A DNA stretch of 64,000 nucleotides from a virus. The notes under the pieces are model-generated. The model was not told where the DNA came from, did no database searches, and saw only the letters and a program-made list of their open reading frames with translations. The position numbers were made by a program, and so were the translations under genes. Location: the IMG/VR virus record IMGVR_UViG_3300021256_000097. The stretch is one strand, 5' to 3'. Position 1 is the first letter of the stretch. The number at the start of each line of letters is the position of its first letter. Of this stretch, positions 341-63,945 are shown in pieces.

Positions 341-898
341 ATGATAACATTGATATGTGGACCTATGTTTAGTGGTAAAAGTACTGAGTTAATCAGACAA
401 CTTGAACGTAAACATATTGCAGGCAAAAAAGTTCTTTATATACGACCTAATAAAGACTCTCGTAACTTTGTTGCAAGAGGCTATAAGGGAGACTTGAAAA
501 AACTGGCAAGTCTTGAGTATGTAAATGACTTCAGTAAAAACCATGATAAGTTGGTTGAGTGGATATCTGAGTATGATGCTATTTTTGTAGATGAATACTT
601 TATGATTGAAAACTGTGATCTATTATGTAAGGTTTTACCTGAAGAAGATCATAAGTGTGATATATACTTTGGTGGACTGCTTGCAACCGCAGAAAATGTT
701 ACTTGGCCCGAGGCAGTCAAAATATTGCCATATTGTGATGAAATCATCAAATTGAACGCAGTCTGTACAAATTGTGGTTCAGAACATGGTAATTATTCTC
801 TCTTTAAGGGGGAGAAGAAAGAAGCACTTGTTATAGGCGACAATACTTATATGGCCGTTTGTAGAAAGTGTTATGGCTTGCTTAAAGGACATTTATAA
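341..898 (+). CDS. tdk: Thymidine kinase
   Basis: ICGPMFSGKSTELIR P-loop typical of TK. C-terminal CTNCG...CRKC zinc ribbon. Confidence 0.9.
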   Translation: MITLICGPMFSGKSTELIRQLERKHIAGKKVLYIRPNKDSRNFVARGYKGDLKKLASLEYVNDFSKNHDKLVEWISEYDAIFVDEYFMIENCDLLCKVLPEEDHKCDIYFGGLLATAENVTWPEAVKILPYCDEIIKLNAVCTNCGSEHGNYSLFKGEKKEALVIGDNTYMAVCRKCYGLLKGHL

Positions 899-955
899 AC
901 CTATACTTGTTGGATTTTGTCCACATATTATTATATATGTGAGGACAAATATTTT

Positions 956-1851: not shown

Positions 1852-1880
1852 AGACCCAGTATTTTGCTGGGTCTTTTTTA
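1852..1880 (+). terminator. Intrinsic terminator
   Basis: agacccag...ctgggtc hairpin followed by a T-run. Confidence 0.6.
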
Positions 1881-1972
1881 TACTTTAGTGAAGTTTTTAA
1901 CATATTATTTATATACATTTTATTATAAAAATATTTTAAAGTACAAATATTAAAATTTGTATTGGAGGAAAA

Positions 1973-8436: not shown

Positions 8437-8507
8437 ATTAAATATAATAACATTTTTAGAAAAATAATACCTAACTGTAGAATTTTTGTACTAATTGCAA
8501 ATTGACG

Positions 8508-8517
8508 ACATATTATA
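8508..8517 (+). promoter_or_regulatory. Conserved phage promoter core ACATATTATA. The upstream element is TGTACT-N15.
   Basis: One instance of a motif seen more than 35 times directly upstream of an RBS and start codon. Confidence 0.6.
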
Positions 8518-8620
8518 AAAGCGAAACGTGGGTTTCGAAGGTAAGATATGTTTTTTTGGGATTGCTAATTCTAAGATTACATATTTTATATGTAAACTTT
8601 TATAATTAAGGAGCTTTATT

Positions 8621-18561: not shown

Positions 18562-18590
18562 AAGGCAGTAGTTAACCCTACTGCCTTTTT
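18562..18590 (+). terminator. Intrinsic terminator
   Basis: aaggcagtag...ctactgcctt hairpin plus a T-run. Confidence 0.6.
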
Positions 18591-18638
18591 ACTTTTAAAG
18601 CACTTGTCTACATATTATAATATGAATATGGAGAAGAT

Positions 18639-19298
18639 ATGCATTTAACAGTAGAAGATAAAGATTGGAACCGTATGTATGACTTAATCGTAGACGGTAA
18701 AGATGGCGCTGGCGTAGCACGCTCAATTAAATCTAAAGAAAAAGCTGTTGCAAGATATGTTGCTGCAATGCGACTTTTAAGTCGAAATCCCGCAGATTAT
18801 TATGAGGATGATACCTACAATAAATATTTTAAGGGTGATTTCGCGGATTTTGCTAATAAAGCGCTTGACTTAGGTGCAACATATGATGACATCTATTCGG
18901 TATGGGATAATTGTCCAGCACCAATTGATTTGATTGAAAAGATTAAAGGGTATTTCGGAGCTGTGGATGTTCGAGCAAATATTCCCGATAATTTCTTTAA
19001 GGAATTGCGCCATAGAAATATTCCAATTATGACAAAACTTACACCTGGTAAATCCATTATGGATACACTGGGCATAAAAGAGGTTCCAATGGATATTGTT
19101 TTTTATCCAGGCGAGTTTGCTGAGTGCTCAGTAAGTATTAAAGTTACAGTCCATAAAAATGGAGAAGCGAATGAATATGCTTTGGTGAAGACAGATGGAC
19201 TTAAAGTTAATGACTTTAGCCATTGTGGTTATAATTTTTTCCGTGAACAGATTTTTAATGCTCTTGATAACAGAGAAGAGCCTGAATCTTACTTTTAA
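18639..19298 (+). CDS. Hypothetical protein
   Basis: Promoter core at 18610-18619 and an RBS. Confidence 0.5.
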   Translation: MHLTVEDKDWNRMYDLIVDGKDGAGVARSIKSKEKAVARYVAAMRLLSRNPADYYEDDTYNKYFKGDFADFANKALDLGATYDDIYSVWDNCPAPIDLIEKIKGYFGAVDVRANIPDNFFKELRHRNIPIMTKLTPGKSIMDTLGIKEVPMDIVFYPGEFAECSVSIKVTVHKNGEANEYALVKTDGLKVNDFSHCGYNFFREQIFNALDNREEPESYF

Positions 19299-19341
19299 TT
19301 TTACTTTATAATTTACATATTATAAATAATAGGAGATATAT

Positions 19342-26640: not shown

Positions 26641-26685
26641 AAAAAGTCCAGGTAGTTCAAAAAGTTACCTGGACTTTATTTTTGT
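26641..26685 (+). terminator. Intrinsic terminator
   Basis: gtccaggta...tacctggac hairpin plus a T-run. Confidence 0.65.
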
Positions 26686-26703
26686 AATGAACATATTATA
26701 GAT

Positions 26704-27000
26704 ATGAAGAAGAAAGAAAATACAGGCCTGACTTATGTACAGGCAGCTAGCATGATAAAAAGAAATCCATATGGAGTAGACTCAAAAGGTGGAAATGCGC
26801 CAAATCTCATTCGTCGTGACGATTGGACTGAAAATAAAGTCCTTACTATTGATAATAAGGGACAACTCCGTATGGCAGATGTAAGACTGAATCCGTCAAC
26901 AAAGAAGCATATGGTGCCTGAGTTTAACAGTCAGGTTACCGCGCGTGAAGACCTCTGGGCAACAGACTGGTGTTTCATTGATGCGGCAGATTATTTCTAA
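26704..27000 (+). CDS. Hypothetical protein
   Basis: Promoter core at 26691-26700. Confidence 0.45.
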   Translation: MKKKENTGLTYVQAASMIKRNPYGVDSKGGNAPNLIRRDDWTENKVLTIDNKGQLRMADVRLNPSTKKHMVPEFNSQVTAREDLWATDWCFIDAADYF

Positions 27001-27725: not shown

Positions 27726-27803
27726 AAAAAATTCTACGGAAGTTTTTTGACTTCCGTTTTTTTATTGACATATTATCTATAACATAACGCATAGGAGATA
27801 ATT

Positions 27804-28907: not shown

Positions 28908-28991
28908 GTTAAAAATAATTGCCAGAGTTCTATACTCTGGCTATTTATTTTACATATTATAATTGTTAACCTTATACAGAAGGAGGCAATT

Positions 28992-30111: not shown

Positions 30112-30178
30112 AATACATAATTAGCTTATACTTTCCAATTTTATTCTACATATTATAGATACTTAAAGGAGGAAGAAA

Positions 30179-30957: not shown

Positions 30958-31008
30958 TTTTTGGACTATAGAACTTTTGTAAACATATAATATATAATTG
31001 GAGGAATT

Positions 31009-32825: not shown

Positions 32826-32902
32826 ATCGGTTTTTATACTCTGCATAAACTATAAACATATAATATATGTAAACTAAAACAATTACTTTGGAGGTAATAC
32901 TT

Positions 32903-33895: not shown

Positions 33896-33970
33896 GTCAA
33901 GACAAGTCAGTTCAGTTAAAAAAATAATTTAAAAAAGTTGCGCAGATTTTATACTCTGCGCAGCATATTT

Positions 33971-33980
33971 ACATATTATA
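33971..33980 (+). promoter_or_regulatory. Promoter core ACATATTATA. The TATACT element lies 15 nt upstream, inside the loop of the preceding terminator hairpin.
   Basis: ttgcgcagattttatactctgcgcag hairpin, then the core motif. Confidence 0.6.
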
Positions 33981-34014
33981 AATGTAAACGATTAAACATC
34001 AAGGAGGAATTAAG

Positions 34015-35427: not shown

Positions 35428-35514
35428 GTTAAATAAGTTTTGAAAAAAGTTCGGAAGTTTTGTGCTTCCGAACTACTATAGACATATTATATATGTACAA
35501 TGGAGGTACACGTT

Positions 35515-36700: not shown

Positions 36701-36766
36701 AATTTTTATATAAGTTTTAGGATATAGAACTTTTATTTACATATTATAATTGTACAGGAGATTATT

Positions 36767-37796: not shown

Positions 37797-37826
37797 AAGA
37801 CCGGATTTTTTCCGGTCTTTTTTTAT
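37797..37826 (+). terminator. Intrinsic terminator
   Basis: gaccgga...tccggtc hairpin plus T7. Confidence 0.65.
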
Positions 37827-37880
37827 ACTATGCAGAAGTTATCTACATATTATAAATACAATAAAGAATTGGAGGAAATT

Positions 37881-38231
37881 ATGCCAAGAAGTATGGAAAT
37901 TAAGAACATCAATAAAAAGCCATTTATTGAGATTCTGGACGACCACAAGTATATTGCTGAAATGAAGCTTGCAGATGGTGATGACATTGTTAAGATCGGC
38001 TTCCCAAAGAAGGATAGCTGTGATAGAGATTACTATCCAGTATTTGTAAATAATCAGGAGGTCTTTGGTACGGGTACAGAGTCCTTCGGTCAGGCAATTA
38101 TTTGGGGTGAAACTTACCTGTCACGAAAAGAAGACCCTGTTGAAACTCTCATGGGTAAAGTAAGAGCTATCAGTCATGAAGCAAACTTTCTGGAATTTGT
38201 TTTGGAAAAAACTAAAGTAAGCGAAATGTAA
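37881..38231 (+). CDS. Hypothetical protein
   Basis: Promoter 37845-37854 and a GGAGG RBS. Confidence 0.5.
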   Translation: MPRSMEIKNINKKPFIEILDDHKYIAEMKLADGDDIVKIGFPKKDSCDRDYYPVFVNNQEVFGTGTESFGQAIIWGETYLSRKEDPVETLMGKVRAISHEANFLEFVLEKTKVSEM

Positions 38232-38297
38232 TTTGTGCTTCACTAAAACTGAAGACATATTATATATACAATAAATAAATATTTAGGAGCCCATTAA

Positions 38298-39676: not shown

Positions 39677-39834
39677 CAAGGCCAATAACAGGCCGTATAA
39701 TAACATATTTACATAAAAAAGTTTTCAACTTTTTTCTCTCCTAAGAGCCCTATAATTTTTATAGGGCTCTTTTTTACTTTCTATAGTATTGTAGACATAT
39801 TATATATACAAAATAAATATATGGAGGCTTAAAA

Positions 39835-41062: not shown

Positions 41063-41096
41063 AAATGCCACATTAGGTTGTGGCATTTTTATTTTA
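41063..41096 (+). terminator. Intrinsic terminator
   Basis: atgccacat...gtggcat hairpin plus a T-run. Confidence 0.6.
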
Positions 41097-41146
41097 AAAT
41101 GGTATTCTACATAATTGTGAACATATTATAGTAAATAGGAGGAACT

Positions 41147-42048: not shown

Positions 42049-42083
42049 AAAGCCGCAAATAATTGCGGCTTTTTTATTTTTAA
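42049..42083 (+). terminator. Intrinsic terminator
   Basis: agccgcaaataattgcggct plus T6. Confidence 0.65.
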
Positions 42084-42132
42084 ATAGGCTTTCTGCATAG
42101 AAAATTACATATTATAAATACAGGAGAAAATT

Positions 42133-43836: not shown

Positions 43837-43876
43837 GAAAATAATTAAATAAAAATATACTTTACAATAATAAATT

Positions 43877-43886
43877 ACATATTATA
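43877..43886 (+). promoter_or_regulatory. Promoter core ACATATTATA. It starts the transcript of about 420 nt that runs into tRNA-Leu.
   Basis: Core motif. No ORF lies downstream until the tRNA. Confidence 0.55.
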
Positions 43887-44304
43887 ATTGTTAGGTGATA
43901 AACCTAATCGACCTAAGGCGTGGTAGCCTAAATAGTGATGAAGTATAGGATAGCGGTGTGCTTAAGAGCTACGCGACAATTACGTTTCCTATATGGAGCT
44001 ATGGAAGAAAAGCTCAGAGTTTCCTAATTGGGCTCTAGACTTGGACCATACAGACCAAGAGATCCTAACCCTAGAGTTAGGGGATGCAACGGTACGGTTA
44101 TAAACAACGAGAAGCTTCAGAGTGAGCTAATCGGGTCCAGTTTCAAACGTGGGAACATCCGTATTCCGTGAGTTTACACGGACACATTAGAATTGAAGAG
44201 TAGGGTCATACGGGATACCGAAATTCGTATTATTGCTGGTCAGTGAAAAGTTAGAAGCCCTAGCATATGGCGTCTGGCTTGGAGACCGAAATATATGCTA
44301 ATCT
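43887..44304 (+). ncRNA. ORF-free structured leader of about 420 nt, a candidate ncRNA, between the promoter and tRNA-Leu
   Basis: Several hairpins, for example ttaggtgataaacctaa, cttggaccatacagaccaag and ccctagagttaggg. No ORF or RBS. Confidence 0.3.
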
Positions 44305-45659: not shown

Positions 45660-46151
45660 CTAAAAATCCAGGATCTAATACCTGGTTAGAAGTGTATTAG
45701 AGACCTAATATGAGCGGATGGTTTTACCAGATGAAACTTGTATTAGAAGGCTATTACTTTACAAATACTGTACGCTTGTGTCAGTCCTTGCGTTAACGAT
45801 GCGCAGGTATAACGGCTGGGAAGGTTCGTAGAAAGCCTAAGCTTAGAGTACTATGCTCAATACCGTAAGTCCGTCGCCTCAAGTTTGATTCTACCTATTA
45901 TATGATAAGGGTCGACTGACAGCCTACGGAAGTTTAGGGATTGATAGTAGGTGACCAATTATACGAGTCGTAATCCCTTTATAAATAACCATTATATGGA
46001 AGAGTCCTTAGGGAATGGCCTACCGAAATGGTAACAATGGGAATTGAAGTACTATTGGGGAGTGAACCGATTATAGGAACATTGTAGTATAGTGGTATTT
46101 ATAAACGATTTTTGTTAGTTATGTTAGTTTTATACTTTATTTGGTAAGCTA

Positions 46152-46161
46152 ACATATTATA
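46152..46161 (+). promoter_or_regulatory. Promoter core ACATATTATA. It drives a transcript of about 260 nt that ends at the terminator at 46393-46424.
   Basis: Core motif with no ORF downstream. Confidence 0.55.
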
Positions 46162-46164
46162 AAT

Positions 46165-46428
46165 ATGAAATTATGCGTATAATATGAAAGTTGAAATTTC
46201 ATAAAATACGCTAATATAAATATAACAGAAAATGCTGTAGGATTAGGTTTACTTAGATTCTATTTTTGGTTTAGAAAAAACAAAGAGCCTATCCGATTTT
46301 TCGCTTTTCTTAATTTTGGAATTATATGTAAGCCGACTCCCTATTACCAAATCGGGACCCCTCCTTGTCGGATTCATATGAGACATAGTTACGGGAAGCA
46401 TGCGAATGCTTCCTTTTTTTTTATTTAT
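46165..46428 (+). ncRNA. Candidate small ncRNA, about 260 nt from promoter to terminator, immediately upstream of the Ro60-like gene (possible Y-RNA-like RNA)
   Basis: The unit is bounded by the promoter and the gggaagcatgcgaatgcttcc+T9 terminator. An internal 13-bp hairpin gcgtataatatgaaa/tttcataaaatacgc is present. No ORF or RBS. Confidence 0.35.
46393..46424 (+). terminator. Intrinsic terminator
   Basis: gggaagcat gcga atgcttcc plus T9. Confidence 0.7.
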
Positions 46429-46471
46429 AAAATTATTTAATAAACTTCAGTTTGAAGTGAGGAGAAATAAA

Positions 46472-47937: not shown

Positions 47938-47966
47938 TAAAGGAGGCTTCGGCCTCCTTTTGTTAT
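47938..47966 (+). terminator. Intrinsic terminator
   Basis: aggaggcttcggcctcct plus T4. Confidence 0.6.
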
Positions 47967-47975
47967 TATTAAATT

Positions 47976-48530
47976 ATGATTACCTATTCAAAAGTATTTT
48001 ACGATAAAAATACAGATAATTTTTATAATAGCCTCACATGTGGAAAAGATACCAAAGATATGATTCCAGTAGATGATTTATGGATTATACATAATGAAGC
48101 TACAATTCTTGGTAAAAGTGCTATAAATACTTATACAAGGTATCTTAACAATATTTCCAGAAACCCTTCTAACTATATTACTTGGAAAGTATCCAAGTAT
48201 GGTATACTTTCAAATAATGAAAATACTAAAAAGAGAATTAGAGTAATAGAAGCTGGACTTGGAAGCTCAGCTAGAAGTATTGTATACACAGAGCAAAATG
48301 AAAAATACATTGTATCTTTTATTCAGAATGGCAGGTGTAGACGGCGCTACTCTTATCCAAATAAGAAAGACTCTACATTTAATTTGGGGTATGTTCGATT
48401 CTTAGAAGAAAATAAAGAAGAACTATTAAGCCTTGGTTTTGAAGAATATATGGATATAAGATTTGAGCTTAAGCCAAGAAGAATACAGTATATGACTAAA
48501 GATGATGCTGCGGTTTATTTTGATGATTAA
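47976..48530 (+). CDS. Hypothetical protein with no promoter motif or RBS of its own
   Basis: The ORF starts 10 nt after the terminator. Confidence 0.4.
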   Translation: MITYSKVFYDKNTDNFYNSLTCGKDTKDMIPVDDLWIIHNEATILGKSAINTYTRYLNNISRNPSNYITWKVSKYGILSNNENTKKRIRVIEAGLGSSARSIVYTEQNEKYIVSFIQNGRCRRRYSYPNKKDSTFNLGYVRFLEENKEELLSLGFEEYMDIRFELKPRRIQYMTKDDAAVYFDD

Positions 48531-49439: not shown

Positions 49440-49610
49440 ATGAAACCTATAATTTTATTTTTTGCTGGTTTCGTGATTTTAGGATTTTCACTAATGCTAA
49501 AGTCCGGATATACACCTATAAAAACTGTAGAGTCGGATAAGTCATATAAGCTTGAAGCAGTTTGTCCAAAGAAACATTGGAAAAATGAAATTCCTGTAAA
49601 AGATATTTAG
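49440..49610 (+). CDS. Small membrane protein (56 aa), not in the ORF track
   Basis: GGAGAG RBS and an N-terminal TM segment. Confidence 0.3.
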   Translation: MKPIILFFAGFVILGFSLMLKSGYTPIKTVESDKSYKLEAVCPKKHWKNEIPVKDI

Positions 49611-49669
49611 GATTCTACAGTAGAGGCTACATATTATATATGTAGCTTTTATTATATATGGAGGTAGCT

Positions 49670-50446: not shown

Positions 50447-50498
50447 TCACTTATACTTCTGCAGTTTTATTTACATATAATATTTGTATGGAGGAATT

Positions 50499-50996: not shown

Positions 50997-51210
50997 AGCA
51001 AGCGCTTCAGCTTCAAGCGGAATTGGTATTGGAACAGTATGTTTTATTGTATTCGTAATTTTGAAGGTTATGAATATCGCACCTATCGCAAGCTGGTCTT
51101 GGCTTAAGGTAATTCTTTTACCGGTAGCTATCAGTTTTATTCCAGCACTGATTGTAATGTTTTTCTGGATAATTGGTCTTCTTTTCCTTTGGCTTTTTTC
51201 AAGGAAATAG
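50986..51210 (+). CDS. Small membrane protein
   Basis: Two TM helices. Confidence 0.4.
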   Translation: MANKASASASSGIGIGTVCFIVFVILKVMNIAPIASWSWLKVILLPVAISFIPALIVMFFWIIGLLFLWLFSRK

Positions 51211-51228
51211 GCTAATCTATTATTGTAA

Positions 51229-51238
51229 ACATATTATA
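51229..51238 (+). promoter_or_regulatory. Promoter core ACATATTATA upstream of the tmRNA
   Basis: Core motif about 60 nt before the tmRNA 5' end. Confidence 0.55.
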
Positions 51239-51297
51239 CAAAGTTAAAAATATTTATTTAAAAAATATTACATTTAAAAAACGTATAAATATATTAT

Positions 51298-51663
51298 GGG
51301 CCTGACTTTGGAATCGATTGGTATCAGAGTAGTCTATGTATCATGCACAGTGGTTATTGTACCCTAAAAGCAACGTAAGTAATCGACGCACAGAACGAAT
51401 ATGCAATGGCTGCGTAAGCAACCTAGCATCTAGAGACTTCGAGAGCTCTAGCGCTTGAACCAACAGATGTAGGTGGTATGGTTTTAAGTGTGGCTACTAC
51501 CTTCTAGGAAGCAGTGAGAGGCGGAGCGAGAGCTTGTAACTGTAACGACAATACTAGGGCAGAATCCGGTTGCCGGTCCCGAATCGAAAAAAGGCTTAAG
51601 CATGTAGAGAAGTACATATTCAAAAAGGTAAGCAAGACGAGAGTTCGAAACTCTCCAGGTCCA
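51298..51663 (+). ncRNA. ssrA: tmRNA (SsrA), standard one-piece form. The tag reading frame is (D)AQNEYAMAA-stop at 51385/51388-51417.
   Basis: The 5' end GGGCCTGACTTTGGAATCGATTGG matches tmRNA GGGGCTGATTCTGGATTCGACGGG. The conserved TAAGCATGTAG motif is present. The 3' tRNA-like end is gagag-ttcgaaa-ctctc plus acceptor caggtcc, which pairs with the 5' gggcctg. The ORF gca cag aac gaa tat gca atg gct gcg taa is present. Confidence 0.8.
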
Positions 51664-52897: not shown

Positions 52898-52967
52898 GTT
52901 TAGCTAGTTTTGTACTTCTACAGTAGAATAAACATATTATATATGTAATCTATTTGTGGAGGTACTT

Positions 52968-53493: not shown

Positions 53494-53679
53494 ATGTCTC
53501 AACTTATTGCCAATTTTATGGCTAATGTTCATGCATTTGGTGTTGACCCAATTTCAACAGCAATTGTCAGTTTTCTTATTGTAGATGTTCTTGTTATTGC
53601 GACATGTCTTATTAAAATTGCTATAATCTCAAGTAAAGAGAAAAAGCCACCAAAAGTGCGCAGATTCGGATCGTACTAA
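53494..53679 (+). CDS. Small membrane protein
   Basis: GGAGG RBS and one TM helix. Confidence 0.4.
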   Translation: MSQLIANFMANVHAFGVDPISTAIVSFLIVDVLVIATCLIKIAIISSKEKKPPKVRRFGSY

Positions 53680-53703
53680 ATTCATACTTATCAGAAAATA
53701 ATC

Positions 53704-53713
53704 ACATATTATA
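53704..53713 (+). promoter_or_regulatory. Promoter core ACATATTATA. An untranslated leader of about 280 nt follows before the sigma-factor gene.
   Basis: Core motif. The leader contains hairpins gtcttcaatagatagaagac and ctcaaccttgagtgttgagg. Confidence 0.5.
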
Positions 53714-53995
53714 TTTATAGTTACGCGATTAAATACGCGTACACGGTTAATCGATAGCTGGTCACGCTATAGCAGAGCTGTCTTCAATAGATAGAAGACA
53801 AAGCGGTTTTAGAGGATGACTGCTGGAGGTTTATTCAATGCTAGAACGTTTTTTGTCTCTCAACCTTGAGTGTTGAGGAAAGGCAACAAATGGCGCGGAT
53901 TAGTACTTACCGCTTAAAATAATAAGTAACATTCTTAAATATATAGTCTTCTATTCTTAACACTCAAGGCGAGTAAATTAAGATAGGAGACGCGA

Positions 53996-54697
53996 GTGTT
54001 TGAAGAAAAAACTGATTATGAGCTTTTCGCTCAGTACATTAAAAACCCAGGAGCAAATGAGGGAGACAAGAAAGCTGCTCTAACTCAACTCTGGATGCGT
54101 TATGAGGCGCTTACACACAAGATGGGACACGTACTTGAAGCGAGACGCAACAAAGGTAATTTCTACGGACTAGAAACAGAGACTTACTATTCCGATTTTT
54201 ATGATGCTTTCTTGAAGGCAGTTGATGGTTTGCAGCTCAGTAAAATTAAAACTGATCCAAAGACTTGGAAGTTCTGGATTCAGTATAATGGCTACTTGCG
54301 TTCTGCTAATCGTGATAAGATTAATGATTATTGCCGCATAACAAAGCATGAAAGACCAATTACGGTTACAAATGAAGATGGAGAGGAAGTCAGCATTGCA
54401 GATTTATGTGGTTCAGAATATTCTGCTACAATTGAAGATGATTACTTTAAGAGTGAAGAATCAGTAGTTCTTAAAGAAGCAATCAAAAATGCTTATTCAA
54501 AGTTTTCCGATAAGCAGAAGAAGATTTGGTCAATGCGTGAGGGTGGCGATACCTTTACAGCAATAGCTAAATCAATGAATGTATCATCTAGCTCCATTAA
54601 ATATCAGATGAATCGCATTAAAGACGTTTTACGCAGTGAGTTAAACGAGTCAAATAAGCGACATAACACTGAAATTCGTCCTGCTTGCTTAATGTAA
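53996..54697 (+). CDS. Sigma-70-family sigma factor (regions 2 and 4; small, FliA/ECF-like)
   Basis: FLKAVDGLQLSK...WKFWIQYNGYLRSA (region 2.2-2.3-like) and the C-terminal HTH FTAIAKSMNVSSSSIKYQMNRIKDVL (region 4). GTG start after AGGAG. Confidence 0.7.
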   Translation: MFEEKTDYELFAQYIKNPGANEGDKKAALTQLWMRYEALTHKMGHVLEARRNKGNFYGLETETYYSDFYDAFLKAVDGLQLSKIKTDPKTWKFWIQYNGYLRSANRDKINDYCRITKHERPITVTNEDGEEVSIADLCGSEYSATIEDDYFKSEESVVLKEAIKNAYSKFSDKQKKIWSMREGGDTFTAIAKSMNVSSSSIKYQMNRIKDVLRSELNESNKRHNTEIRPACLM

Positions 54698-54743: not shown

Positions 54744-54878
54744 CTAACGCCAGAGTAAAACTTCTGGGTTATTTACGATCTTGGTAGCTGCTCCTTCGAT
54801 TCCAGCTTTCCAATCATAAGTTCCATTCTTAATAGCTTTTTTAATAGCTTTAACCTTTTCTGATTTGATTTTTGGCAT
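54744..54878 (-). CDS. FlgM-like anti-sigma peptide (44 aa), not in the ORF track
   Basis: EKVKAIKKAIKNGTYDWKAGIEGAATKIV matches the FlgM C-terminal sigma-28-binding region ([27 protein letters not shown]). It has its own AGGAGG RBS and a minus-strand ACATATTATG promoter at 54891-54909. Confidence 0.4.
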   Translation of the reverse strand: MPKIKSEKVKAIKKAIKNGTYDWKAGIEGAATKIVNNPEVLLWR

Positions 54879-54928
54879 TATACCAATTCCTCCTGTTATA
54901 CATAATATGTATATATCTATGCAGAAGT

Positions 54929-55264: not shown

Positions 55265-55331
55265 AAAATTATTAGTAAGTTCTATGCTTCTGTAAATCTA
55301 CTGACATATTATGCGTAGAAAGGAGGATTAT

Positions 55332-55703: not shown

Positions 55704-55751
55704 TTTCTGTACTTCTGTATAGATGACAACATATTATAAACAGAGGTAATT

Positions 55752-56039: not shown

Positions 56040-56138
56040 GTAGACTTTTTGGGCTTCTACGTAGTAGCCCACATATTATAAGTGTAAATGAGAAAGCCTG
56101 AACTCAGGCTTTTGGTTAATAGTTCAAAGGAGGATAAC

Positions 56139-56967: not shown

Positions 56968-57050
56968 AGTTATCTCCTATAAAAATTAGTCTACAGAATT
57001 AGACTTTATTCTACGCAGAATACATATTATATATGTAGATAGGAGGAATT

Positions 57051-57353
57051 ATGCTTATTGTTATGTTTGGCGCTTGGAATGATGAGCGACATGAATATAA
57101 AGACCTCAATGAATATTTAGAAAAGAATAAGGACCAATTTGTTTGGTACGTAAACGCTTTCTTAGAAGAACATCATCCAGAAATGCCAAAGTTTGAGCTT
57201 ACTGATGAATGCAAAAAATTCTGTGAACAGTACGTAGAAAAACATGGTGCTGAAGCGCCTTGGTTTGCTTTGAATAAGGATGGATATTCTTATGAGCATA
57301 TAAGACTTAACAATTTAATTGTTGATGCAATCGCTATATTTTTGAACGTGTAA
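57051..57353 (+). CDS. Hypothetical protein
   Basis: Promoter 57022-57031 and an AGGAGG RBS. Confidence 0.5.
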   Translation: MLIVMFGAWNDERHEYKDLNEYLEKNKDQFVWYVNAFLEEHHPEMPKFELTDECKKFCEQYVEKHGAEAPWFALNKDGYSYEHIRLNNLIVDAIAIFLNV

Positions 57354-57404
57354 TTCTAGGCTTGTTCTGCGTAGAATACATATTATATATGTTTGGAGTA
57401 CAAT

Positions 57405-58163
57405 ATGACTATTGAAGTTGAAAATAAACAATTTAAGCTTAATGAAATTGAATCTCTTACATTTCAAACATATTTGGCAACATTGAAGGAAACTAAGCCA
57501 AACAAGGATAGATTCCGGATTGTAGTCATTAGCGATGGTGTTCCACAAGAGTATTACCTTCGTCCAAAGTCGCTTGAATATGTTAAAACTAGATGGTGTC
57601 CTACGGGCTTACTCCGAAAATGTGAGCATGTATTACTTGCAAGCAAGCCTTATGTTAAAGGTGAAGTTAGCCATGCAGAAGCACTTTACAAGAGACGCGC
57701 ATCAAATGATGCACAGTTTAAGATACTTTTGAGTCATGTATCAGAAATTGAAGCTGCAATTGGCTATACATTTAATAATAAAAACTTAATTGCTCAGGCC
57801 TTTATCCCTAAGGGCTGCGAAACAAGTATGGTTAATAGTGCTGCATTGGAATTGATTGGTGACCGAGTTCTTTATACAATTGTAATCCAGCATCTTGCAA
57901 AAGTTTGGACTAAAAGCATTAATGGCTATGTAATGGCCGTAAATATGGCTACATTCTCTGATAAAGCAACTGGAGATATTAGTAATCATACTTTTGCAGC
58001 ATTCTTTAAGAAAGCTGATCTTACAAAGTTTTTGCTTTCTACAACAAAAACTTCAAAGAAGATACTTGCAAATGGCTTTGAATCTATTTTCGGGGCAGTT
58101 GCAATTGATACAAATTACAATTTTGATACACTTAATAAAGTGTACGATAAGCTTACTGCATAG
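57405..58163 (+). CDS. RNase III-domain protein
   Basis: AALELIGDRVL (ERLEFLGD-like signature) and ESIFGAVAID (the second catalytic motif). Confidence 0.6.
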   Translation: MTIEVENKQFKLNEIESLTFQTYLATLKETKPNKDRFRIVVISDGVPQEYYLRPKSLEYVKTRWCPTGLLRKCEHVLLASKPYVKGEVSHAEALYKRRASNDAQFKILLSHVSEIEAAIGYTFNNKNLIAQAFIPKGCETSMVNSAALELIGDRVLYTIVIQHLAKVWTKSINGYVMAVNMATFSDKATGDISNHTFAAFFKKADLTKFLLSTTKTSKKILANGFESIFGAVAIDTNYNFDTLNKVYDKLTA

Positions 58164-58388: not shown

Positions 58389-58480
58389 AAATAAATAAGT
58401 TTGTCAAGCTGTAGAAGTTTTTATACTTCTACAGTTTAGTTTACATATTATAAATACAAAACAAATAAATGGAGGCAATT

Positions 58481-58978: not shown

Positions 58979-59058
58979 GTTGGTAAGGCTGTAGAAGTTT
59001 TTAGGCTCTACAGCCTTTATTTACATATAATAAATGTAAACTTAATAAGGAGGCAACT

Positions 59059-59712: not shown

Positions 59713-59785
59713 AAAACAAATTCTATGCAGAGCTTTTTAGGCTCTGCATTTTTTATTTACATATTATAAATGTTTGGAGGTAACT

Positions 59786-60369: not shown

Positions 60370-60423
60370 GATTTATACTTCTACAGATTTATTTACATAT
60401 TATAAATACAAACGGAGGTAATT

Positions 60424-61249: not shown

Positions 61250-61319
61250 GTTTTTTATACTTTCTACATAGTATCTACATATAATAAATGTAAAACAAAA
61301 TCATTTGGAGGATTTTATT

Positions 61320-61667: not shown

Positions 61668-61856
61668 ATGAAAAAATTATTATCTGCATTATCTACAACT
61701 GCAAAAGTAGTTGGAACAGTCAGTAAAGCTCTTGATGGTAAAGCAAAACAAAGAGACTTTGAGAATACTACTTTTCTTGGCTCAGTAAATGAAAATCTTG
61801 AGACATTCAACGCAACTATGGCTGTTGCTAAAAAAATCAAAAAATATCTAAAATAA
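61668..61856 (+). CDS. Small protein
   Basis: RBS plus ATG. Confidence 0.4.
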   Translation: MKKLLSALSTTAKVVGTVSKALDGKAKQRDFENTTFLGSVNENLETFNATMAVAKKIKKYLK

Positions 61857-61907
61857 TTTTACTTTCATTCTACAGAATACATATTATAAATGTAATTGGA
61901 GGTAATT

Positions 61908-62132: not shown

Positions 62133-62450
62133 ATGAATATGGTACGCTGCGAAGGTGAACTTATAATCAATCGGAATCCAAAAGATATTCCACATCTTGT
62201 GCCCTACATTTCAAAAAAAGAAATTGAAGGCAAAAACAAATGGGTATTCAAGATTGATGACGTATATGAATCAAAAGCTGACTTCCTGAGATGGTATGAG
62301 AATACTGTTAAGAAGCCAATTCTTTTGGATGGTAAAACCAGACTAAATGGCAAGATAGTCATGACAGATATGGAAGATATGAACCAGAGCGGAGATTGGC
62401 TTATTAAAAATAATTTTCCATCATTCCAGCCAGTTTTACCAATGTTTTAG
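62133..62450 (+). CDS. Hypothetical protein
   Basis: AGGAG RBS. Confidence 0.45.
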   Translation: MNMVRCEGELIINRNPKDIPHLVPYISKKEIEGKNKWVFKIDDVYESKADFLRWYENTVKKPILLDGKTRLNGKIVMTDMEDMNQSGDWLIKNNFPSFQPVLPMF

Positions 62451-62492
62451 GCTTTCTACAGAATAGTCACATATTATATATGAGGTAAGAAT

Positions 62493-62888
62493 ATGACTAC
62501 TAAAACCAGAAAAAAGACTATTGAGGTAACGACTTATATTGCTGAAGATGGCAAGAAGTTTGATAATGAAAAAGATTGTCTTACTTATGAAGCAAAATGT
62601 TGGCTTAAAAAACATGAAGTAGCCTATAGTACTCATGATTGGACTGGCTATGTGATCAATAAGTCTGAGTGTCCAACTTTTTTGGATGTATATAGAAGAT
62701 TTGGAGAAGCTTATGGATATTATGCTAACCATATTCCAGCAGACTTAGAGAATGCGGATGGAGACAATTGGAAGTTTTTATTTAAGTTTGATAATGCTAG
62801 CCACAAGCTTTGTTTTTATGGAGCAGATTATGAGATGGCTTGTCTTAACTCAAGATATGAGAGCTTTTGTGAAGCTTTTAATCTTTAA
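62493..62888 (+). CDS. Hypothetical protein
   Basis: Promoter 62469-62478 and an RBS. Confidence 0.45.
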   Translation: MTTKTRKKTIEVTTYIAEDGKKFDNEKDCLTYEAKCWLKKHEVAYSTHDWTGYVINKSECPTFLDVYRRFGEAYGYYANHIPADLENADGDNWKFLFKFDNASHKLCFYGADYEMACLNSRYESFCEAFNL

Positions 62889-63708: not shown

Positions 63709-63885
63709 ATGTGCCAAGCAAAAAGCTGTAAGAAATACAAAGATTGCAAATTAAAAGCTGGTTGTCAGGACTTCCGCTGTTCTAGCTATAAAAAAGCAGA
63801 AGGTAAGGAAGAAGAAGCAAATTATAAGTATAATCCAAATGGCAAGGTTAGTAACCTTAGTCAGGCTATTGGATATTGGTTGTAA
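63709..63885 (+). CDS. Small Cys/Lys-rich protein
   Basis: GAGGA RBS. CQAKSCKKYKDCKLKAGCQDFRC. Confidence 0.35.
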   Translation: MCQAKSCKKYKDCKLKAGCQDFRCSSYKKAEGKEEEANYKYNPNGKVSNLSQAIGYWL

Positions 63886-63945
63886 TTTAGGATTCATTCT
63901 TCTAAAGAACATATTATAAAAGTTCTTCAGAACAAGGAGTTTTAA

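What the first reader, a model, noticed from the sequence alone, without database searches (positions are those of the whole stretch)
57361..57387. Highly conserved bipartite phage promoter TATACT-N15-ACATATTATA(A/T)ATG in front of nearly every gene; the upstream element is often embedded in the previous gene's terminator loop
More than 35 copies of ACATATTATA (rarely ACATATAATA), usually followed by AATG/TATG, lie 15-35 nt upstream of an RBS. Core positions include 8508, 18610, 19315, 26691, 27768, 28952, 30148, 30983, 33971, 35482, 36739, 37845, 38255, 39795, 41121, 42107, 43877, 46152, 49629, 50473, 51229, 52932, 53704, 55304, 55728, 56071, 57022, 57378, 58443, 59023, 59759, 60395, 61277, 61879, 62469, 62928, 63909, and 54891-54909 on the minus strand. 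In several cases a TATACT hexamer lies exactly 15 nt upstream, at 33950, 37824, 58427, 60375, 62908 and others. It is frequently located in the loop of the preceding terminator hairpin, for example ctgtagaagTTTTTATACTtctacag. The TATAAATA portion resembles T4 late promoters. The motif is near-palindromic: the reverse complement is ACATAATATGT. This gives an extremely modular cassette of promoter, RBS, small gene and terminator.
Basis: seen in the sequence. Interest (0 to 1): 0.55.

Follow-up and report, generated by a model that had tools for sequence, protein, structure and literature searches.

The report
Megaphage promoter–terminator cassette motif
A roughly 40-base signal repeated 42 times in this slice of a ~573-kb gut megaphage is very probably the phage's main promoter, often fused to the previous gene's terminator; it looks more like bacterial sporulation-sigma (σK/σE) promoters than housekeeping ones, and it also marks the points where genes are swapped in and out.

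Summary
The repeat is real: 32 exact ACATATTATA, all on the + strand (0.47 expected), and 42 PWM sites, each co-oriented with its downstream gene. The full element is TTTT-TRKRCT-(TCTRYAGA dyad)-N-ACATATTATA-WATR. It precedes protein genes (core 23–47 nt before the start codon) and RNA genes (tmRNA). "Nearly every gene" is overstated: 33 of 101 genes. About one third of sites are fused to a terminator hairpin, which lies either just upstream or around the -35-like box. The motif recurs, with lineage-specific boxes, in related megaphage contigs (137–554 kb). ATGs at exactly +13 open SD-less genes, which places the transcription start there. That geometry (AC-N17-CATATTAT, C at -12) matches mapped C. 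difficile σK/σE promoters. A σK model fits best in all six lineages, and a σA model fits no better than random sequence. Gene indels between near-identical phages have junctions inside the motif, as with the PeSL cassettes of T4-type phages. Verdict: a real promoter and a new variant of a known kind; which sigma reads it is unresolved.

The parts
898..936 (+). promoter site, core A at 923 (variant ACATATTATT)
   Evidence: PWM 17.7; 33 nt before the start codon at 956
1875..1913 (+). promoter site, core 1900, with an upstream terminator whose U-tract is the motif's T-run
   Evidence: PWM 30.2; hairpin at -49..-25, -16 kcal/mol; precedes the P-type ATPase gene at 1973
8483..8521 (+). promoter site, core 8508
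   Evidence: PWM 28.1
8554..8592 (+). promoter site, core 8579 (variant ACATATTTTA)
   Evidence: PWM 17.5; 42 nt before the start at 8621
18585..18623 (+). promoter site, core 18610, upstream terminator
   Evidence: PWM 18.2; hairpin at -48..-23, -15.1 kcal/mol
19290..19328 (+). promoter site, core 19315
   Evidence: PWM 29.0; 27 nt before the start at 19342
26666..26704 (+). promoter site, core 26691, -35-like box in the 3' arm of a hairpin; ATG at +13 (26704) with no SD, a leaderless candidate
   Evidence: PWM 28.1; hairpin -17.7 kcal/mol; the 98-aa ORF from this ATG is in four public sources with exactly this N-terminus
27743..27781 (+). promoter site, core 27768, box (TTGACT) inside a hairpin followed by TTTTTTATTG
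   Evidence: PWM 30.7; precedes the NAD ligase gene at 27804
28927..28965 (+). promoter site, core 28952, box inside a hairpin
   Evidence: PWM 32.4; hairpin -14 kcal/mol
30123..30161 (+). promoter site, core 30148
   Evidence: PWM 29.4
30958..30996 (+). promoter site, core 30983 (ACATATAATA)
   Evidence: PWM 29.1
32831..32869 (+). promoter site, core 32856 (ACATATAATA)
   Evidence: PWM 31.8
33946..33984 (+). promoter site, core 33971, box in the hairpin loop
   Evidence: PWM 32.8; hairpin gttgcgcaga/tctgcgcagc, -17.3 kcal/mol
35457..35495 (+). promoter site, core 35482, box in the hairpin loop; precedes rIIB
   Evidence: PWM 36.8; hairpin -16.9 kcal/mol
36714..36752 (+). promoter site, core 36739
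   Evidence: PWM 32.2
37820..37858 (+). promoter site, core 37845, upstream terminator
   Evidence: PWM 34.9; hairpin at -48..-26, tail TTTTTATACT
38230..38268 (+). promoter site, core 38255
   Evidence: PWM 32.9
39770..39808 (+). promoter site, core 39795, upstream terminator
   Evidence: PWM 27.5; hairpin -18.3 kcal/mol
41096..41134 (+). promoter site, core 41121, upstream terminator
   Evidence: PWM 16.9; hairpin -15.9 kcal/mol
42082..42120 (+). promoter site, core 42107, upstream terminator
   Evidence: PWM 25.4; hairpin -14.1 kcal/mol
43852..43890 (+). promoter site, core 43877, followed by about 500 nt of non-coding sequence
   Evidence: PWM 30.7
46127..46165 (+). promoter site, core 46152, about 250 nt before the Ro/TROVE gene
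   Evidence: PWM 31.9
49604..49642 (+). promoter site, core 49629
   Evidence: PWM 31.9
50448..50486 (+). promoter site, core 50473 (ACATATAATA)
   Evidence: PWM 35.3
51204..51242 (+). promoter site, core 51229, 69 nt before the tmRNA gene (51298-51663)
   Evidence: PWM 21.9; tmRNA
52907..52945 (+). promoter site, core 52932
   Evidence: PWM 35.9
53679..53717 (+). promoter site, core 53704, followed by a structured 279-nt leader and the sigma-like gene
   Evidence: PWM 26.8; leader fold z = -3.7; promoter kept at -304 in L008
54897..54935 (-). the only minus-strand promoter site, core 54910; drives the minus-strand 44-aa FlgM-like gene
   Evidence: PWM 29.1; 32 nt before the start at 54878; FlgM Pfam 26.4 bits against a cutoff of 25
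55279..55317 (+). promoter site, core 55304 (ACATATTATG)
   Evidence: PWM 23.9
55704..55742 (+). promoter site, core 55729
   Evidence: PWM 29.8
56046..56084 (+). promoter site, core 56071
   Evidence: PWM 33.3
56997..57035 (+). promoter site, core 57022
   Evidence: PWM 21.1
57353..57391 (+). promoter site, core 57378 (the instance given in the finding); precedes an RNase III-like gene
   Evidence: PWM 31.8; sequence read; RNase III Pfam hit
58418..58456 (+). promoter site, core 58443, box in the loop of hairpin ctgtagaag/cttctacag
   Evidence: PWM 39.5, the best in the window; hairpin -17.2 kcal/mol
58998..59036 (+). promoter site, core 59023, box in a hairpin loop
   Evidence: PWM 33.8; hairpin -17.8 kcal/mol
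59734..59772 (+). promoter site, core 59759, box in a hairpin followed by TTTTTATTT
   Evidence: PWM 38.1; also called by the generic terminator scan
60370..60408 (+). promoter site, core 60395
   Evidence: PWM 39.0
61252..61290 (+). promoter site, core 61277 (ACATATAATA)
   Evidence: PWM 35.0
61854..61892 (+). promoter site, core 61879; insertion point of an extra 96-aa gene in the 95%-identical phage L003
   Evidence: PWM 30.5; junctions
62444..62482 (+). promoter site, core 62469; left partner of the recombination that deletes gene 62493-62888 in L003
   Evidence: PWM 30.0; chimeric promoter in L003
62903..62941 (+). promoter site, core 62928; right partner of the same recombination
   Evidence: PWM 35.5
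63884..63922 (+). promoter site, core 63909
   Evidence: PWM 27.1
53996..54697 (+). σ70-family (SigH-like) phage sigma gene: candidate reader of the motif, but not shown to be
   Evidence: TIGR02937 E 1.7e-7, below cutoff; 48 of 84 family members hit TIGR02937; best PDB match 3mzy sigma-H, E 3.5e-6; recognition segments invariant across lineages

Best explanation
The motif is the main promoter of the replication/accessory (early- or middle-type) gene region of an uncultivated ~573-kb megaphage that probably infects gut Clostridia. Each copy is a ~40-bp unit. In core coordinates (A of ACATATTATA = 0) it comprises a T-run (-25..-22), a -35-like box T-R-K-R-C-T (-21..-16, with A-C at -18/-17), a dyad-symmetric spacer box TCTRYAGA (from about -15), the extended -10 box A-CATATTAT-A (0..+9), and a purine at +13 where transcription most likely starts. 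In about a third of copies the unit is fused to the previous gene's intrinsic terminator. Either the terminator's U-tract is the promoter's T-run, or the -35-like box sits in the terminator's loop and 3' arm. Each 1-3-gene unit is therefore transcriptionally insulated. Because about 40-55 bp are nearly identical at dozens of places, the units are also preferred crossover points. Recombination between two copies deletes, inserts or reorders the genes between them and leaves a functional chimeric promoter. This is the behaviour of the PeSL cassettes of T4-type phages. Shown computationally: the repeat, its orientation and position rules, its conservation, the hairpins, and the recombination junctions. 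Inferred: that it is a promoter; that the start is at +13 (from SD-less genes whose ATG sits exactly there); and that it is read by a σ70-family holoenzyme whose specificity resembles the mother-cell sporulation sigmas σK/σE (AC-N17-CATATTAT, C at -12) rather than σA. Which protein supplies that specificity is open: a phage sigma, the SigH-like sigma at 53996, or a modified host enzyme.
For: Repeat and strand bias. Position: the core lies 23-47 nt before start codons, the single minus-strand copy drives a minus-strand gene, and copies precede the tmRNA and long leaders. Conservation: ACATATTATA is also the top word in L003, L004/5 and L008/9, and the 258-kb IMG/VR contig has 57 unique sites in ~36 kb. 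L006 (TGAACTT...GTATATATTA) and L219 (TyAGACAATT...CATATTAT) carry lineage-specific variants. Terminators: upstream hairpin plus U-tract at 27/153 sites against 5/720 random positions. Box-enclosing hairpins with stems of >=9 bp at 15% against 5.8% in the control, with 26 distinct arms among 29 and G.T wobbles that pair only on the transcribed strand. Start site: ATG at +13 occurs 16 times and 13 of those open ORFs of >=45 aa, about 8 independent ones with no room for an SD. ATG at +11 occurs 59 times and never opens one. Few ORF-opening starts appear before +23. Independent gene calls and exact-sequence look-ups agree. Specificity class: Saujet 2013 (PMC3789822) calls CATATTAT the canonical -10 box of mother-cell sigmas. 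Its Table S7 annotates σK candidates as AC-N16-18-CATATTAT/CATATAAT, and the C of CATA lies at -12..-14 from mapped starts. Two-block models trained on those lists rank σK first in all six lineages (median z 2.2-3.1, against σE 0.6-1.9 and σA -0.2..0.8). The best placement is at AC -18/-17 and CATA +1 in 23 of 38 window sites. A generic σ70 scan is not enriched (66 found, 66 expected) and passes only about 3 motif sites. Recombination: L003 (95% identical) lacks gene 62493-62888, and its junction is a chimera of promoters 62469 and 62928. L003 also carries an extra gene inserted at promoter 61879. L008/9 have reordered cassettes with boundaries within about 50 nt of cores. Distribution: 36 sites in the ORFan-rich 26.6-64 kb part, 6 in 0-26.6 kb, about 1 in the 9 kb upstream of the window, and 9 in a related ~6-kb contig that overlaps and extends past the window's end.
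Against: There are no transcript data, so the promoter function and the start at +13 remain inferences. The σK-model scores (median 12.3 bits) are below those of genuine σK promoters (15.9, self-trained). None exceeds the 99.9th percentile of random windows, and only the 'AC' of the σK -35 block is matched. The strongest upstream positions here (C-17, T-16, T-15) are not σK features. L004/5 largely lack AC at -18/-17. The six lineages share ancestry, so they are not independent tests. Dependence of an entire early-type gene set on a sporulation sigma would be biologically odd. No SigK/SigE-like gene is seen in the window, and the window's own sigma is SigH-like. Two thirds of the sites have no hairpin, and several box-enclosing hairpins lack a good U-tract. 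The recombination evidence rests on two clean indels plus rearrangements.
Confidence: 0.7

Rival explanations
1. It is an ordinary host-σA early promoter, as in T4 early promoters and PeSLs. The extra conserved bases would reflect selection for very strong promoters plus homogenisation by recombination, not a different sigma. TRKRCT would be a weak -35 box, TATTAT (+3..+8) the -10 hexamer at 18-bp spacing, and the T-run an UP-like element.
For: TATTAT matches TATAAT at 5 of 6 positions. Some copies have near-consensus -35 boxes (TTGACT at 27768; TAGACA in L219; TTGAAC in L006). PeSLs in T4-type phages use host σ70 (PMC2839356). Early-type genes are normally read by the host enzyme.
Against: The σA two-block model scores the sites no better than random sequence (z -0.2..0.8), and a permissive σ70 scan passes about 3 of them. 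The base triplet where Clostridial σA promoters have TGn is an invariant ACA. The same window carries ordinary extended -10 boxes (TGTTATTAT-N6/7-ATG at 326, 8452(-), 47961; TGCTAATAT at 9775, 52470) that look different. In those boxes the leaderless ATG lies 6-7 nt after TATTAT, but in the main motif only 4 nt after it. That fits CATATT, not TATTAT, as the functional hexamer.
Confidence: 0.25
2. The motif is read by the phage's own sigma encoded at 53996-54697. That sigma would be made first from a host-type promoter and then drive, and auto-activate from, the CATATTATA promoters. The adjacent FlgM-like protein would act as its anti-sigma or as an inhibitor of a host sigma.
For: The protein is a true σ70-family member with a confident σ4-like C-terminal domain. 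It is found in every lineage that has the motif. Its gene is preceded by a motif copy and, further upstream, by a near-consensus extended -10 (TTGCTATAAT at 53618-53627). The one lineage whose -10 box lacks the C (L006) has the only substitution (N98Y) in the region-2-like segment.
Against: The region-4 helix (VSSSSIKYQMN) and almost the whole region-2-like segment are invariant, while the -35-like box differs in all four lineages. Its nearest named relatives are SigH-type sigmas, whose promoters look quite different. N98Y is a single event. The motif is absent within 420 nt upstream of the gene in L004 and L219. Contigs of distant family members were too short to test covariation.
Confidence: 0.25
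3. The motif is the promoter of a phage-encoded non-canonical RNA polymerase (a phiKZ/AR9-type multisubunit or a single-subunit enzyme) that recognises a continuous block around the start. The conserved 0..+16 stretch, with TATG near the start, would be its recognition block.
For: The genome is very large, and such phages often encode their own polymerases (own knowledge). Conservation runs through the start site (ACATATTATAWATGTAAAC).
Against: The bipartite layout with a fixed-distance upstream box is typical of σ70-family holoenzymes. No RNA polymerase subunit appears among the window's protein-family hits, though only the top 25 families per library were listed. The rest of the genome could not be scanned.
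Confidence: 0.08
4. The primary role is recombinational, not transcriptional. The units would be attC-like sites of a cassette system cut by a site-specific recombinase, and their position before genes would be a consequence of cassette structure.
For: Indel and rearrangement junctions lie in the units. Hairpins have variable stems and conserved flanks.
Against: The two sequenced junctions cross over in different sub-segments that are simply the longest shared stretches. This pattern fits homologous recombination. Two thirds of the units have no hairpin. The strict spacing to SD/ATG, the +13 leaderless starts and the units before RNA genes are transcription-type constraints. No integrase was seen among the listed families.
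Confidence: 0.05

Closest known systems
PeSL (promoter-early stem-loop) cassettes of T4-type phages (Arbiol et al. 2010, PMC2839356; Comeau et al. 2014, PMC4122927)
   Same: A highly conserved strong promoter is fused to a terminator stem-loop whose position relative to the promoter varies (upstream AT-rich region, or overlapping the -35 box). There are dozens of copies, concentrated next to small ORFan genes in plastic regions. G-T pairs occur in the stems. Indels and replacements between close relatives have crossovers inside the cassettes.
   Different: The host and phage group differ: ~0.55-Mb gut megaphages with Firmicutes-type RBS, against 170-250-kb T4-likes of Gram-negatives. The promoter is not the host σ70 consensus and is closest to the σK/σE class. 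It has an extra dyad-symmetric spacer box (TCTRYAGA). Only two stem-loop positions were seen here, against five in PeSLs. The stems are not GGGG/CCCC. Mini-circles were not testable.
Mother-cell sporulation sigma (σK/σE) promoters of Clostridia and Bacilli (Saujet et al. 2013, PMC3789822, Table S7)
   Same: The -10 box CATATTAT is identical to the 'canonical' box. 'AC' lies 17 nt upstream, as in σK. The C of CATA sits at -12 from the inferred start (-12..-14 in mapped promoters). TGAAC and TTAGCA-like -35 boxes appear in other lineages.
   Different: The strongest upstream positions here (C-T-T, the T-run, the TCTRYAGA dyad) are not part of σK/σE consensus. The scores are below those of genuine σK promoters. 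The motif drives replication, accessory and RNA genes of a phage, not spore genes. Dependence on σK/σE is untested.
Phage-encoded sigma factors of Firmicutes phages and huge phages (Schwartz et al. 2022, PMC9429907; Al-Shayeb et al. 2020, PMC7162821; phage G, PMC12484599)
   Same: A large phage of a Firmicutes-like host carries its own σ70-family gene and an anti-sigma-like gene.
   Different: Those reports describe the proteins and, for some, effects on sporulation. None of the papers read describes a cognate genome-wide promoter motif. Here the motif is defined but the protein-motif link is not.
T4 early, middle (MotA box) and late (TATAAATA) promoters
   Same: These are extended, phage-specific conservation beyond the host hexamers. 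TRCTT resembles the MotA-box core TGCTT, and TATAAAT occurs in half of the copies.
   Different: The geometry does not fit. TATAAAT lies at -7..-1, not -13..-6. A fixed upstream box is present, unlike late promoters. No MotA/AsiA families appear among the listed hits. The comparison with T4 consensus sequences rests on my own knowledge and was not tested with a tool.

Membership tests
PeSL-type composite promoter-terminator cassette | Many copies of one highly conserved promoter-like sequence, co-oriented with the downstream genes | tested here: met
   42 sites, all co-oriented, against a control mean of 2.3
PeSL-type composite promoter-terminator cassette | Stable stem-loop attached to the promoter, in varying positions (upstream AT-rich region, overlapping the -35 box, etc.) | tested here: met
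   Two positions found: upstream (27/153 sites against 5/720 random) and enclosing the -35-like box (15% against 5.8%). About one third of sites in all
PeSL-type composite promoter-terminator cassette | Concentrated in plastic, ORFan-rich regions rather than conserved core modules | tested here: met
   36 sites in 26.6-64 kb (small ORFs) against 6 in 0-26.6 kb. Sparse in the upstream flank and dense in a related contig that overlaps the window's end. Structural modules could not be examined
PeSL-type composite promoter-terminator cassette | Gene indels or replacements between close relatives have crossovers inside the cassettes | tested here: met
   L003 against the window: one deletion with a chimeric promoter and one insertion at a promoter. 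L008/9: reordered cassettes
PeSL-type composite promoter-terminator cassette | Promoter identical to the host σ70 consensus (host-RNAP early promoter) | tested here: not met
   σA model z -0.2..0.8. The generic σ70 scan passes about 3 sites. ACA stands in place of TGn
PeSL-type composite promoter-terminator cassette | Formation of circular excision products (mini-circles) | not testable with these tools
   Needs inverse PCR or long reads
σK/σE-type (mother-cell sporulation) promoter | -10 box CATA---TA / CATATTAT | tested here: met
   CATATTAT(A) is the invariant core in the window, L003, L004/5, L008/9, L219 and the IMG/VR contig. L006 has TATATATT (definition from PMC3789822)
σK/σE-type (mother-cell sporulation) promoter | -35 element 'AC' (σK) or 'ATA' (σE), 16-18 nt upstream of the -10 box | tested here: inconclusive
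   In the window, A at -18 in 24/43 sites and C at -17 in 32/43, exactly N17 from CATA. AC is also present in L006 and L219 but mostly absent in L004/5. The rest of the σK -35 block (gtAACA) is not matched
σK/σE-type (mother-cell sporulation) promoter | C of CATA lies 12-14 nt upstream of the mapped start | tested here: met
   With the start inferred at +13 from leaderless genes, C is at -12. The start is inferred, not mapped
σK/σE-type (mother-cell sporulation) promoter | Model score in the range of genuine σK/σE promoters | tested here: inconclusive
   Median 12.3 bits (z 3.1) against 15.9 for the training set. σK is the best of five models in all lineages, but no site exceeds the background 99.9th percentile
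σK/σE-type (mother-cell sporulation) promoter | Transcription depends on σK or σE holoenzyme | not testable with these tools
   Needs in vitro transcription or genetics
Canonical σA (σ70) promoter | TTGACA-N16-18-TATAAT, or extended -10 TGnTATAAT | tested here: not met
   The -35-like box matches 3 of 6 positions, there is no TG, and the PWM is not above background
T4-type late promoter | TATAAATA at -13..-6 with no -35 element | tested here: not met
   TATAWAT lies at +6..+12, i.e. -7..-1 relative to the inferred start, and a fixed upstream box is present. The T4 consensus is from my own knowledge
Intrinsic (Rho-independent) terminator | GC-containing hairpin followed directly by a U-tract, at the 3' end of a gene | tested here: met
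   Met for the upstream class (>=5 T in 8) and for some box-enclosing hairpins (27768, 59759). Other box-enclosing hairpins have poor U-tracts

The most novel reading that the evidence does not exclude
This clade of ~0.55-Mb gut megaphages runs most of its accessory/early genome on a private transcription system. A phage-supplied sigma with mother-cell-sporulation-like (σK/σE-type) specificity would read about a hundred or more near-identical promoters that host σA ignores. A dimeric phage regulator, or methylation at the embedded CTRYAG site, would act on the TCTRYAGA dyad in the spacer as a global on/off switch. The same units would serve as the recombination joints by which the phage acquires and sheds genes.
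Probability: 0.2. Interest if true: 0.8.

Novelty: new variant of a known kind. Interest (0 to 1): 0.55.

Why it matters
Transcription in uncultivated megaphages has hardly been studied. The one cultivated example (phage G) has only generic promoter predictions (PMC12484599). This motif gives a concrete, testable promoter model with a predicted start site for a whole clade of ~0.55-Mb gut phages. It allows operons, non-coding RNA genes and leaderless genes to be annotated in these genomes. It extends the PeSL idea (regulatory cassettes that double as recombination joints) from T4-like phages of Gram-negatives to megaphages of probable Clostridia hosts, and so offers a mechanism for how such genomes accumulate hundreds of small accessory genes. 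If the σK/σE-like specificity is real, it would link megaphage gene expression to the sporulation-sigma family, either through a phage-borne sigma or through dependence on host cell state.

Tried and rejected
(1) Near and protein-level searches of annotated phages (INPHARED) found no relative beyond distant rIIB homologues. The sigma protein found nothing in IMG/VR by peptide patterns. The stricter pattern worked. (3) The string ACATATTATA appears in no phage paper. (4) The structure prediction of the sigma-like protein from 9 sequences gave a confident model only for the C-terminal domain, and all fold hits had E > 0.001. (5) Covariation of sigma and motif using distant family members failed, because the contigs were 1.7 and 8.7 kb with too few intergenic regions. 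L220 (27% GC) also shows no clear repeated motif. (6) GCTAATATA as a second motif: 6 copies on the + strand against about 2 expected on both strands. With one mismatch it is not enriched (23 against 31). I reinterpreted it as part of extended -10 boxes, and it remains weak. (7) The extended -10 pattern as a class is not enriched overall (71 against 83.5); only the positional cases are informative. (8) No Rfam family matches the sigma leader. (9) Considered and rejected: the T4-late reading (geometry), σF/σG/σA models, a σG-type reading of L004's GTAT box (the spacing is 14, not 17-18, by direct reading), and the core near-palindrome as a protein-binding dyad (the symmetry holds only in the TATGT variant).
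Full report
WHAT THE WINDOW IS. The sigma-like gene at 53996-54697 occurs twice, 573,277 bp apart, on a 940,564-bp ENA contig. The window is therefore a slice of a ~573-kb phage genome that was assembled as a concatemer. It encodes thymidine kinase, dCMP deaminase, a clamp loader, a DnaB helicase, an NAD ligase, rIIA/rIIB, a Ro/TROVE protein, a P-type ATPase and many small ORFans. It also carries a tmRNA and two tRNAs. Ribosome-binding sites are GGAGG-type. The P-type ATPase is 56-58% identical to proteins of Lachnospiraceae, Ruminococcus and Oscillospiraceae gut MAGs. A host in the Clostridia is therefore likely but not shown. No close relative exists among annotated phages.

THE OBSERVATION. 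ACATATTATA occurs 32 times, all on the + strand, against 0.47 expected. With six ACATATAATA copies this gives 38. In an unseeded word count ACATATTA is the most over-represented 8-mer (37 observed, 2.4 expected; reverse complement 1). Taking the A of the core as position 0, the column profile is as follows:
- a T-run at -24..-21;
- T-R-K-R-C-T-T at -21..-15, with C-17 and T-16 the strongest positions;
- W-R at -5/-4;
- the core at 0..+9;
- W-A-T-R-t at +10..+14.
A PWM finds 42 strong sites against a control mean of 2.3 hits. Forty-one are on the + strand. The single minus-strand site (54910) drives a minus-strand gene. Most cores lie 23-47 nt before a start codon. The exceptions precede the tmRNA (51229), long non-coding stretches (43877, 46152) or a 279-nt leader (53704). 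Only 33 of 101 called genes have a core within 60 nt and 46 within 350 nt, so these are short operons.

TERMINATORS. In the window about 15 sites have strong hairpins, and they fall into two arrangements. In the first, a canonical terminator lies upstream and its U-tract is the promoter's T-run (1900, 18610, 37845, 39795, 41121, 42107, 62928). In the second, the -35-like box lies in the loop and 3' arm (26691, 27768, 28952, 33971, 35482, 58443, 59023, 59759). I repeated the count over 153 non-identical sites from five lineages. The upstream arrangement occurs at 27 sites, against 5 of 720 random positions. The box-enclosing arrangement, with stems of at least 9 bp, occurs at 15% of sites against 5.8% in a permutation control. 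It shows 26 different 3' arms among 29 hairpins, many compensatory changes, and G.T wobbles that pair only on the transcribed strand. The structure is therefore selected at the RNA level. Several box-enclosing hairpins lack a good U-tract. They may attenuate or stabilise transcripts rather than terminate them fully.

RELATIVES. The sigma-like protein has orthologues at 63-87% identity on contigs of 137-554 kb. The same word tops the unseeded counts in L003 (same phage, another sample), L004/5 and L008/9. A 258-kb IMG/VR contig has 57 unique sites in about 36 kb, with the consensus tTTTT-RTACTT-CTRYAGA-N7-ACATATTATA-TATGTAAAC. Two lineages carry variants of the same architecture. L006 has TTTTGAACTT-CTGTAGAA-N6-GTATATATTA. 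L219 has TyAGACAATT-N-aatCC-CATATTAT-ATGTAAT. The spacer box TCTRYAGA is exact in 74 of 159 sites, against 0.13% of random 18-mers. It starts at -15±1 and uses all four symmetric centres (AC, GT, AT, GC). It is thus a true dyad. It is weaker in the window's own lineage: 4 exact and 18 with at most one mismatch, of 38. Most copies have no upstream partner. The box is therefore conserved in its own right, and the box-enclosing terminators appear to have been built on it. It contains CTRYAG. From my own knowledge this is the SfcI/SfeI-type recognition sequence, so it could be a dimeric regulator's operator or a methylation site. Neither possibility is tested.

WHERE TRANSCRIPTION STARTS. I examined 269 sites in all loci.
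- An ATG at +11 occurs 59 times and never opens an ORF of 45 aa or more; it is the consensus WATG-TAA.
- An ATG at +13 occurs 16 times, and 13 of those open long ORFs.
- Few ORF-opening starts appear again until +23, where the SD-led genes begin.
About eight of the +13/+14 cases are independent and have no room for an SD: window 26691, L004 5820, L006 6008, L014 5392, L016 1785, L220 1606 and 3971, and L004 15038. Gene calls in the source assemblies start at these ATGs. The window's 98-aa protein is present with exactly this N-terminus in four sources. The L004 58-aa protein belongs to a 31-member cluster, and every listed member is 58 aa. These are best read as leaderless mRNAs. That places the start at or very near +13, the conserved purine. 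The C of CATATTAT is then at -12, A-C at -31/-30, and the dyad at about -28..-21.

An internal control supports this register. Three intergenic TGTTATTAT boxes (326, 8452 on the minus strand, 47961) are followed by N6-7 and the ATG of SD-less genes. These are ordinary extended -10 σA-type promoters, with the ATG 6-7 nt after TATTAT. In the main motif the ATG is only 4 nt after TATTAT but 6 nt after CATATT. The functional -10 hexamer of the main motif is therefore CATATT, not TATTAT.

WHICH POLYMERASE. A permissive σ70 scan is not enriched (66 found, 66 expected) and passes only about 3 motif sites. Saujet et al. 2013 (PMC3789822) map C. difficile promoters. They call CATATTAT 'a canonical -10 box for mother cell sigma factors' and give σE spoIIID as ATA-N16-CATATATA. 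Their Table S7 annotates σK candidates as AC-N16-18-CATATTAT, CATATAAT or AATATTAT. It lists promoters such as CD3580 (...AAAC-N17-GCATATTATATTGTA), and CD0902 and dpaA with TGAAC -35 boxes like L006. The C of CATA lies 12-14 nt before the mapped start. The window consensus is AC-N17-CATATTAT with C at -12.

I trained two-block models on the lists for σE (47 promoters), σK (25), σF (11) and σG (30). I added a σA model built from textbook frequencies recalled from memory. σK ranks first in all six lineages, with median z of 3.1, 2.7, 3.1, 2.3, 2.3 and 2.2. σE gives 0.6-1.9, σF 0.2-1.5, σG -0.3 to 1.0 and σA -0.2 to 0.8. The expected placement is found in 23 of 38 window sites.

There are caveats. 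The scores (median 12.3 bits) are below the σK training set (15.9). No site exceeds the 99.9th percentile of random windows. Only 'AC' of the σK -35 block is matched. L004/5 mostly lack it. The lineages are not independent. I conclude that the motif is not a canonical σA promoter and that the nearest known specificity class is σK/σE. I do not conclude that σK or σE reads it.

THE PHAGE SIGMA. The 233-aa protein gives only sub-threshold σ70 hits when searched alone. A profile search finds 149 related clusters. Of 84 members, 48 hit TIGR02937 (best 1.7e-14). The nearest named families are SigH-type. The best solved relative is 3mzy, 'sigma-H factor' (E 3.5e-6, covering regions 2-4). The structure model is confident only for the C-terminal σ4-like domain. 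Its neighbour on the opposite strand is a 44-aa FlgM-like protein (26.4 bits against a cutoff of 25), and that gene has its own copy of the motif. In nine orthologues the region-4 helix VSSSSIKYQMN is invariant. The region-2-like segment TWKFWIQYNGYLRxANRDKIN is invariant except for N98Y in the L006 lineage, Q96P in P0007 and an S/T difference. Yet the -35-like box differs in every lineage. This argues against this sigma reading the variable box. The single N98Y/C-to-T coincidence in L006 is a hypothesis, not evidence. The motif lies upstream of the sigma gene in the window, L008, L006 and L220, but not within 420 nt in L004 or L219.

CASSETTES AS RECOMBINATION JOINTS. PeSLs of T4-type phages are strong early promoters fused to terminator stem-loops in several relative positions. 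They are clustered next to ORFans, and recombination between them produces indels (PMC2839356, PMC4122927). The same behaviour appears here. L003 is 95% identical to the window. It lacks gene 62493-62888, and its junction joins the upstream half of promoter 62469 (TTTTAGGCTTTCTACAGAATA) to the downstream half of promoter 62928 (ATT-ACATATTATA-AATGTTTGGAGG). L003 also has an extra 96-aa gene, with its own terminator, inserted at promoter 61879. In L008/9 the same cassettes occur in a different order, with alignment boundaries within about 50 nt of cores. The motif is dense in the ORFan-rich 26.6-64 kb part. It is also dense in L221, a related 6-kb contig that overlaps and extends past the window's end. 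It is sparse in the replication-type left part and in the 9 kb upstream of the window.

COMPARISON AND NOVELTY. In architecture and evolutionary behaviour this is a PeSL-like system, and four of the five testable PeSL features are met. The failed feature is identity to the host σ70 consensus. In specificity it resembles σK/σE promoters. It is not a T4-late-type promoter. None of the papers searched describes this motif. The phage G paper reports only generic predictions. Huge-phage surveys note sigma and anti-sigma genes but no cognate promoters. I therefore rate it a new variant of a known kind. It is a real, well-defined promoter-terminator cassette of a megaphage clade, with an unusual specificity class, an unexplained dyad and an unresolved reader.

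Noticed in passing
whole window; ENA ERZ28612970 scaffold_1 positions 311173-375172: The source contig is 940,564 bp and carries the sigma-like gene twice, 573,277 bp apart. The genome is therefore about 573 kb, assembled as a 1.64-unit concatemer: a megaphage. Relatives sit on contigs of 554, 429, 299, 258 and 137 kb.
   Followed up: partly
window 51298-51663: A phage-encoded tmRNA (tag DAQNEYAMAA) passes the Rfam gathering score. It lies 69 nt downstream of promoter core 51229.
   Followed up: partly
window 46152-47917 (also L008 3633, L009 3635): The Ro/TROVE gene is preceded by about 250 nt of non-coding sequence after promoter 46152. That stretch contains a segment conserved in L008/L009 (aaaatrcGCTAATATAaatataa..gaaaatgctgtagg). 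It may be a Y-RNA-like partner RNA. No Rfam hit at E <= 0.1.
   Followed up: partly
window 44382-44999 and 45575-45660: A sub-threshold group I intron match (44777-44999; 27.5 bits against a gathering score of 50; E 2e-4) overlaps the end of an HNH-endonuclease ORF (44382-44879), inside a long non-coding stretch after promoter 43877. An 85-nt tRNA-Asn follows.
   Followed up: no
window 53717-53995: The 279-nt leader of the sigma-like gene folds much better than shuffles (-77.4 kcal/mol, z -3.7, 0 of 200 shuffles as good). In the MFE structure a long-range helix pairs the GGAGAC ribosome-binding site with GUCUCU about 130 nt upstream. No Rfam family matches. The leader is partly conserved in L008. 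It may be a translational riboregulator of the sigma.
   Followed up: partly
window 54744-54878 (minus strand): A 44-aa protein reaches the Pfam gathering score for FlgM (anti-sigma-28), 26.4 bits against 25. Its gene is divergent from the sigma-like gene and is driven by the only minus-strand copy of the motif.
   Followed up: partly
window 326-343, 8436-8452 (minus strand), 47961-47978; also 9775, 22747, 52470, 53618-53627: This looks like a second, ordinary promoter type. Extended -10 boxes TGTTATTAT are followed after 6-7 nt by the ATG of SD-less genes (thymidine kinase 341, gene 8436(-), gene 47976). TGCTAATAT, TGCTAATTT or TTGCTATAAT boxes lie 23-43 nt before SD-led genes. As a class the pattern is not enriched (71 against 83.5 expected); only the positions are telling.
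   Followed up: partly
core +11..+16 of many sites, e.g. window 33982, 59034, 61288, 61890: The consensus after the core reads WATG-TAA (or TAG), a start codon followed at once by a stop. An ATG at +11 occurs in 59 of 269 sites and never opens an ORF of 45 aa or more. If transcription starts at +13 the ATG is not in the RNA. If it starts earlier, these would be start-stop mini-ORFs.
   Followed up: partly
L219 515, 2143, 2478, 4069, 4740, 6631 (spacer regions): In the L219 lineage the spacer lacks TCTRYAGA but often carries other dyads (CAATTC-tc-GAATTG, CAATT-taac-AATTG, ATTC-ga-GAAT). Dyad symmetry in the spacer may therefore be the conserved property rather than the sequence. This was judged by eye only.
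   Followed up: no
alignment A1, residue 98 of the window protein: N98Y in the region-2-like segment is unique to the L006-lineage sigma (P0008). That is the only lineage whose -10 box starts with T instead of C. It is a single coincidence and was not tested further.
   Followed up: partly
window 1973-4663 and 57405-58163: The window holds a full-length P-type cation ATPase, 56-58% identical to those of gut Clostridia. It is a likely host-derived gene and is unusual cargo for a phage. There is also an RNase III-domain protein, which could process the hairpin-rich transcripts.
   Followed up: partly
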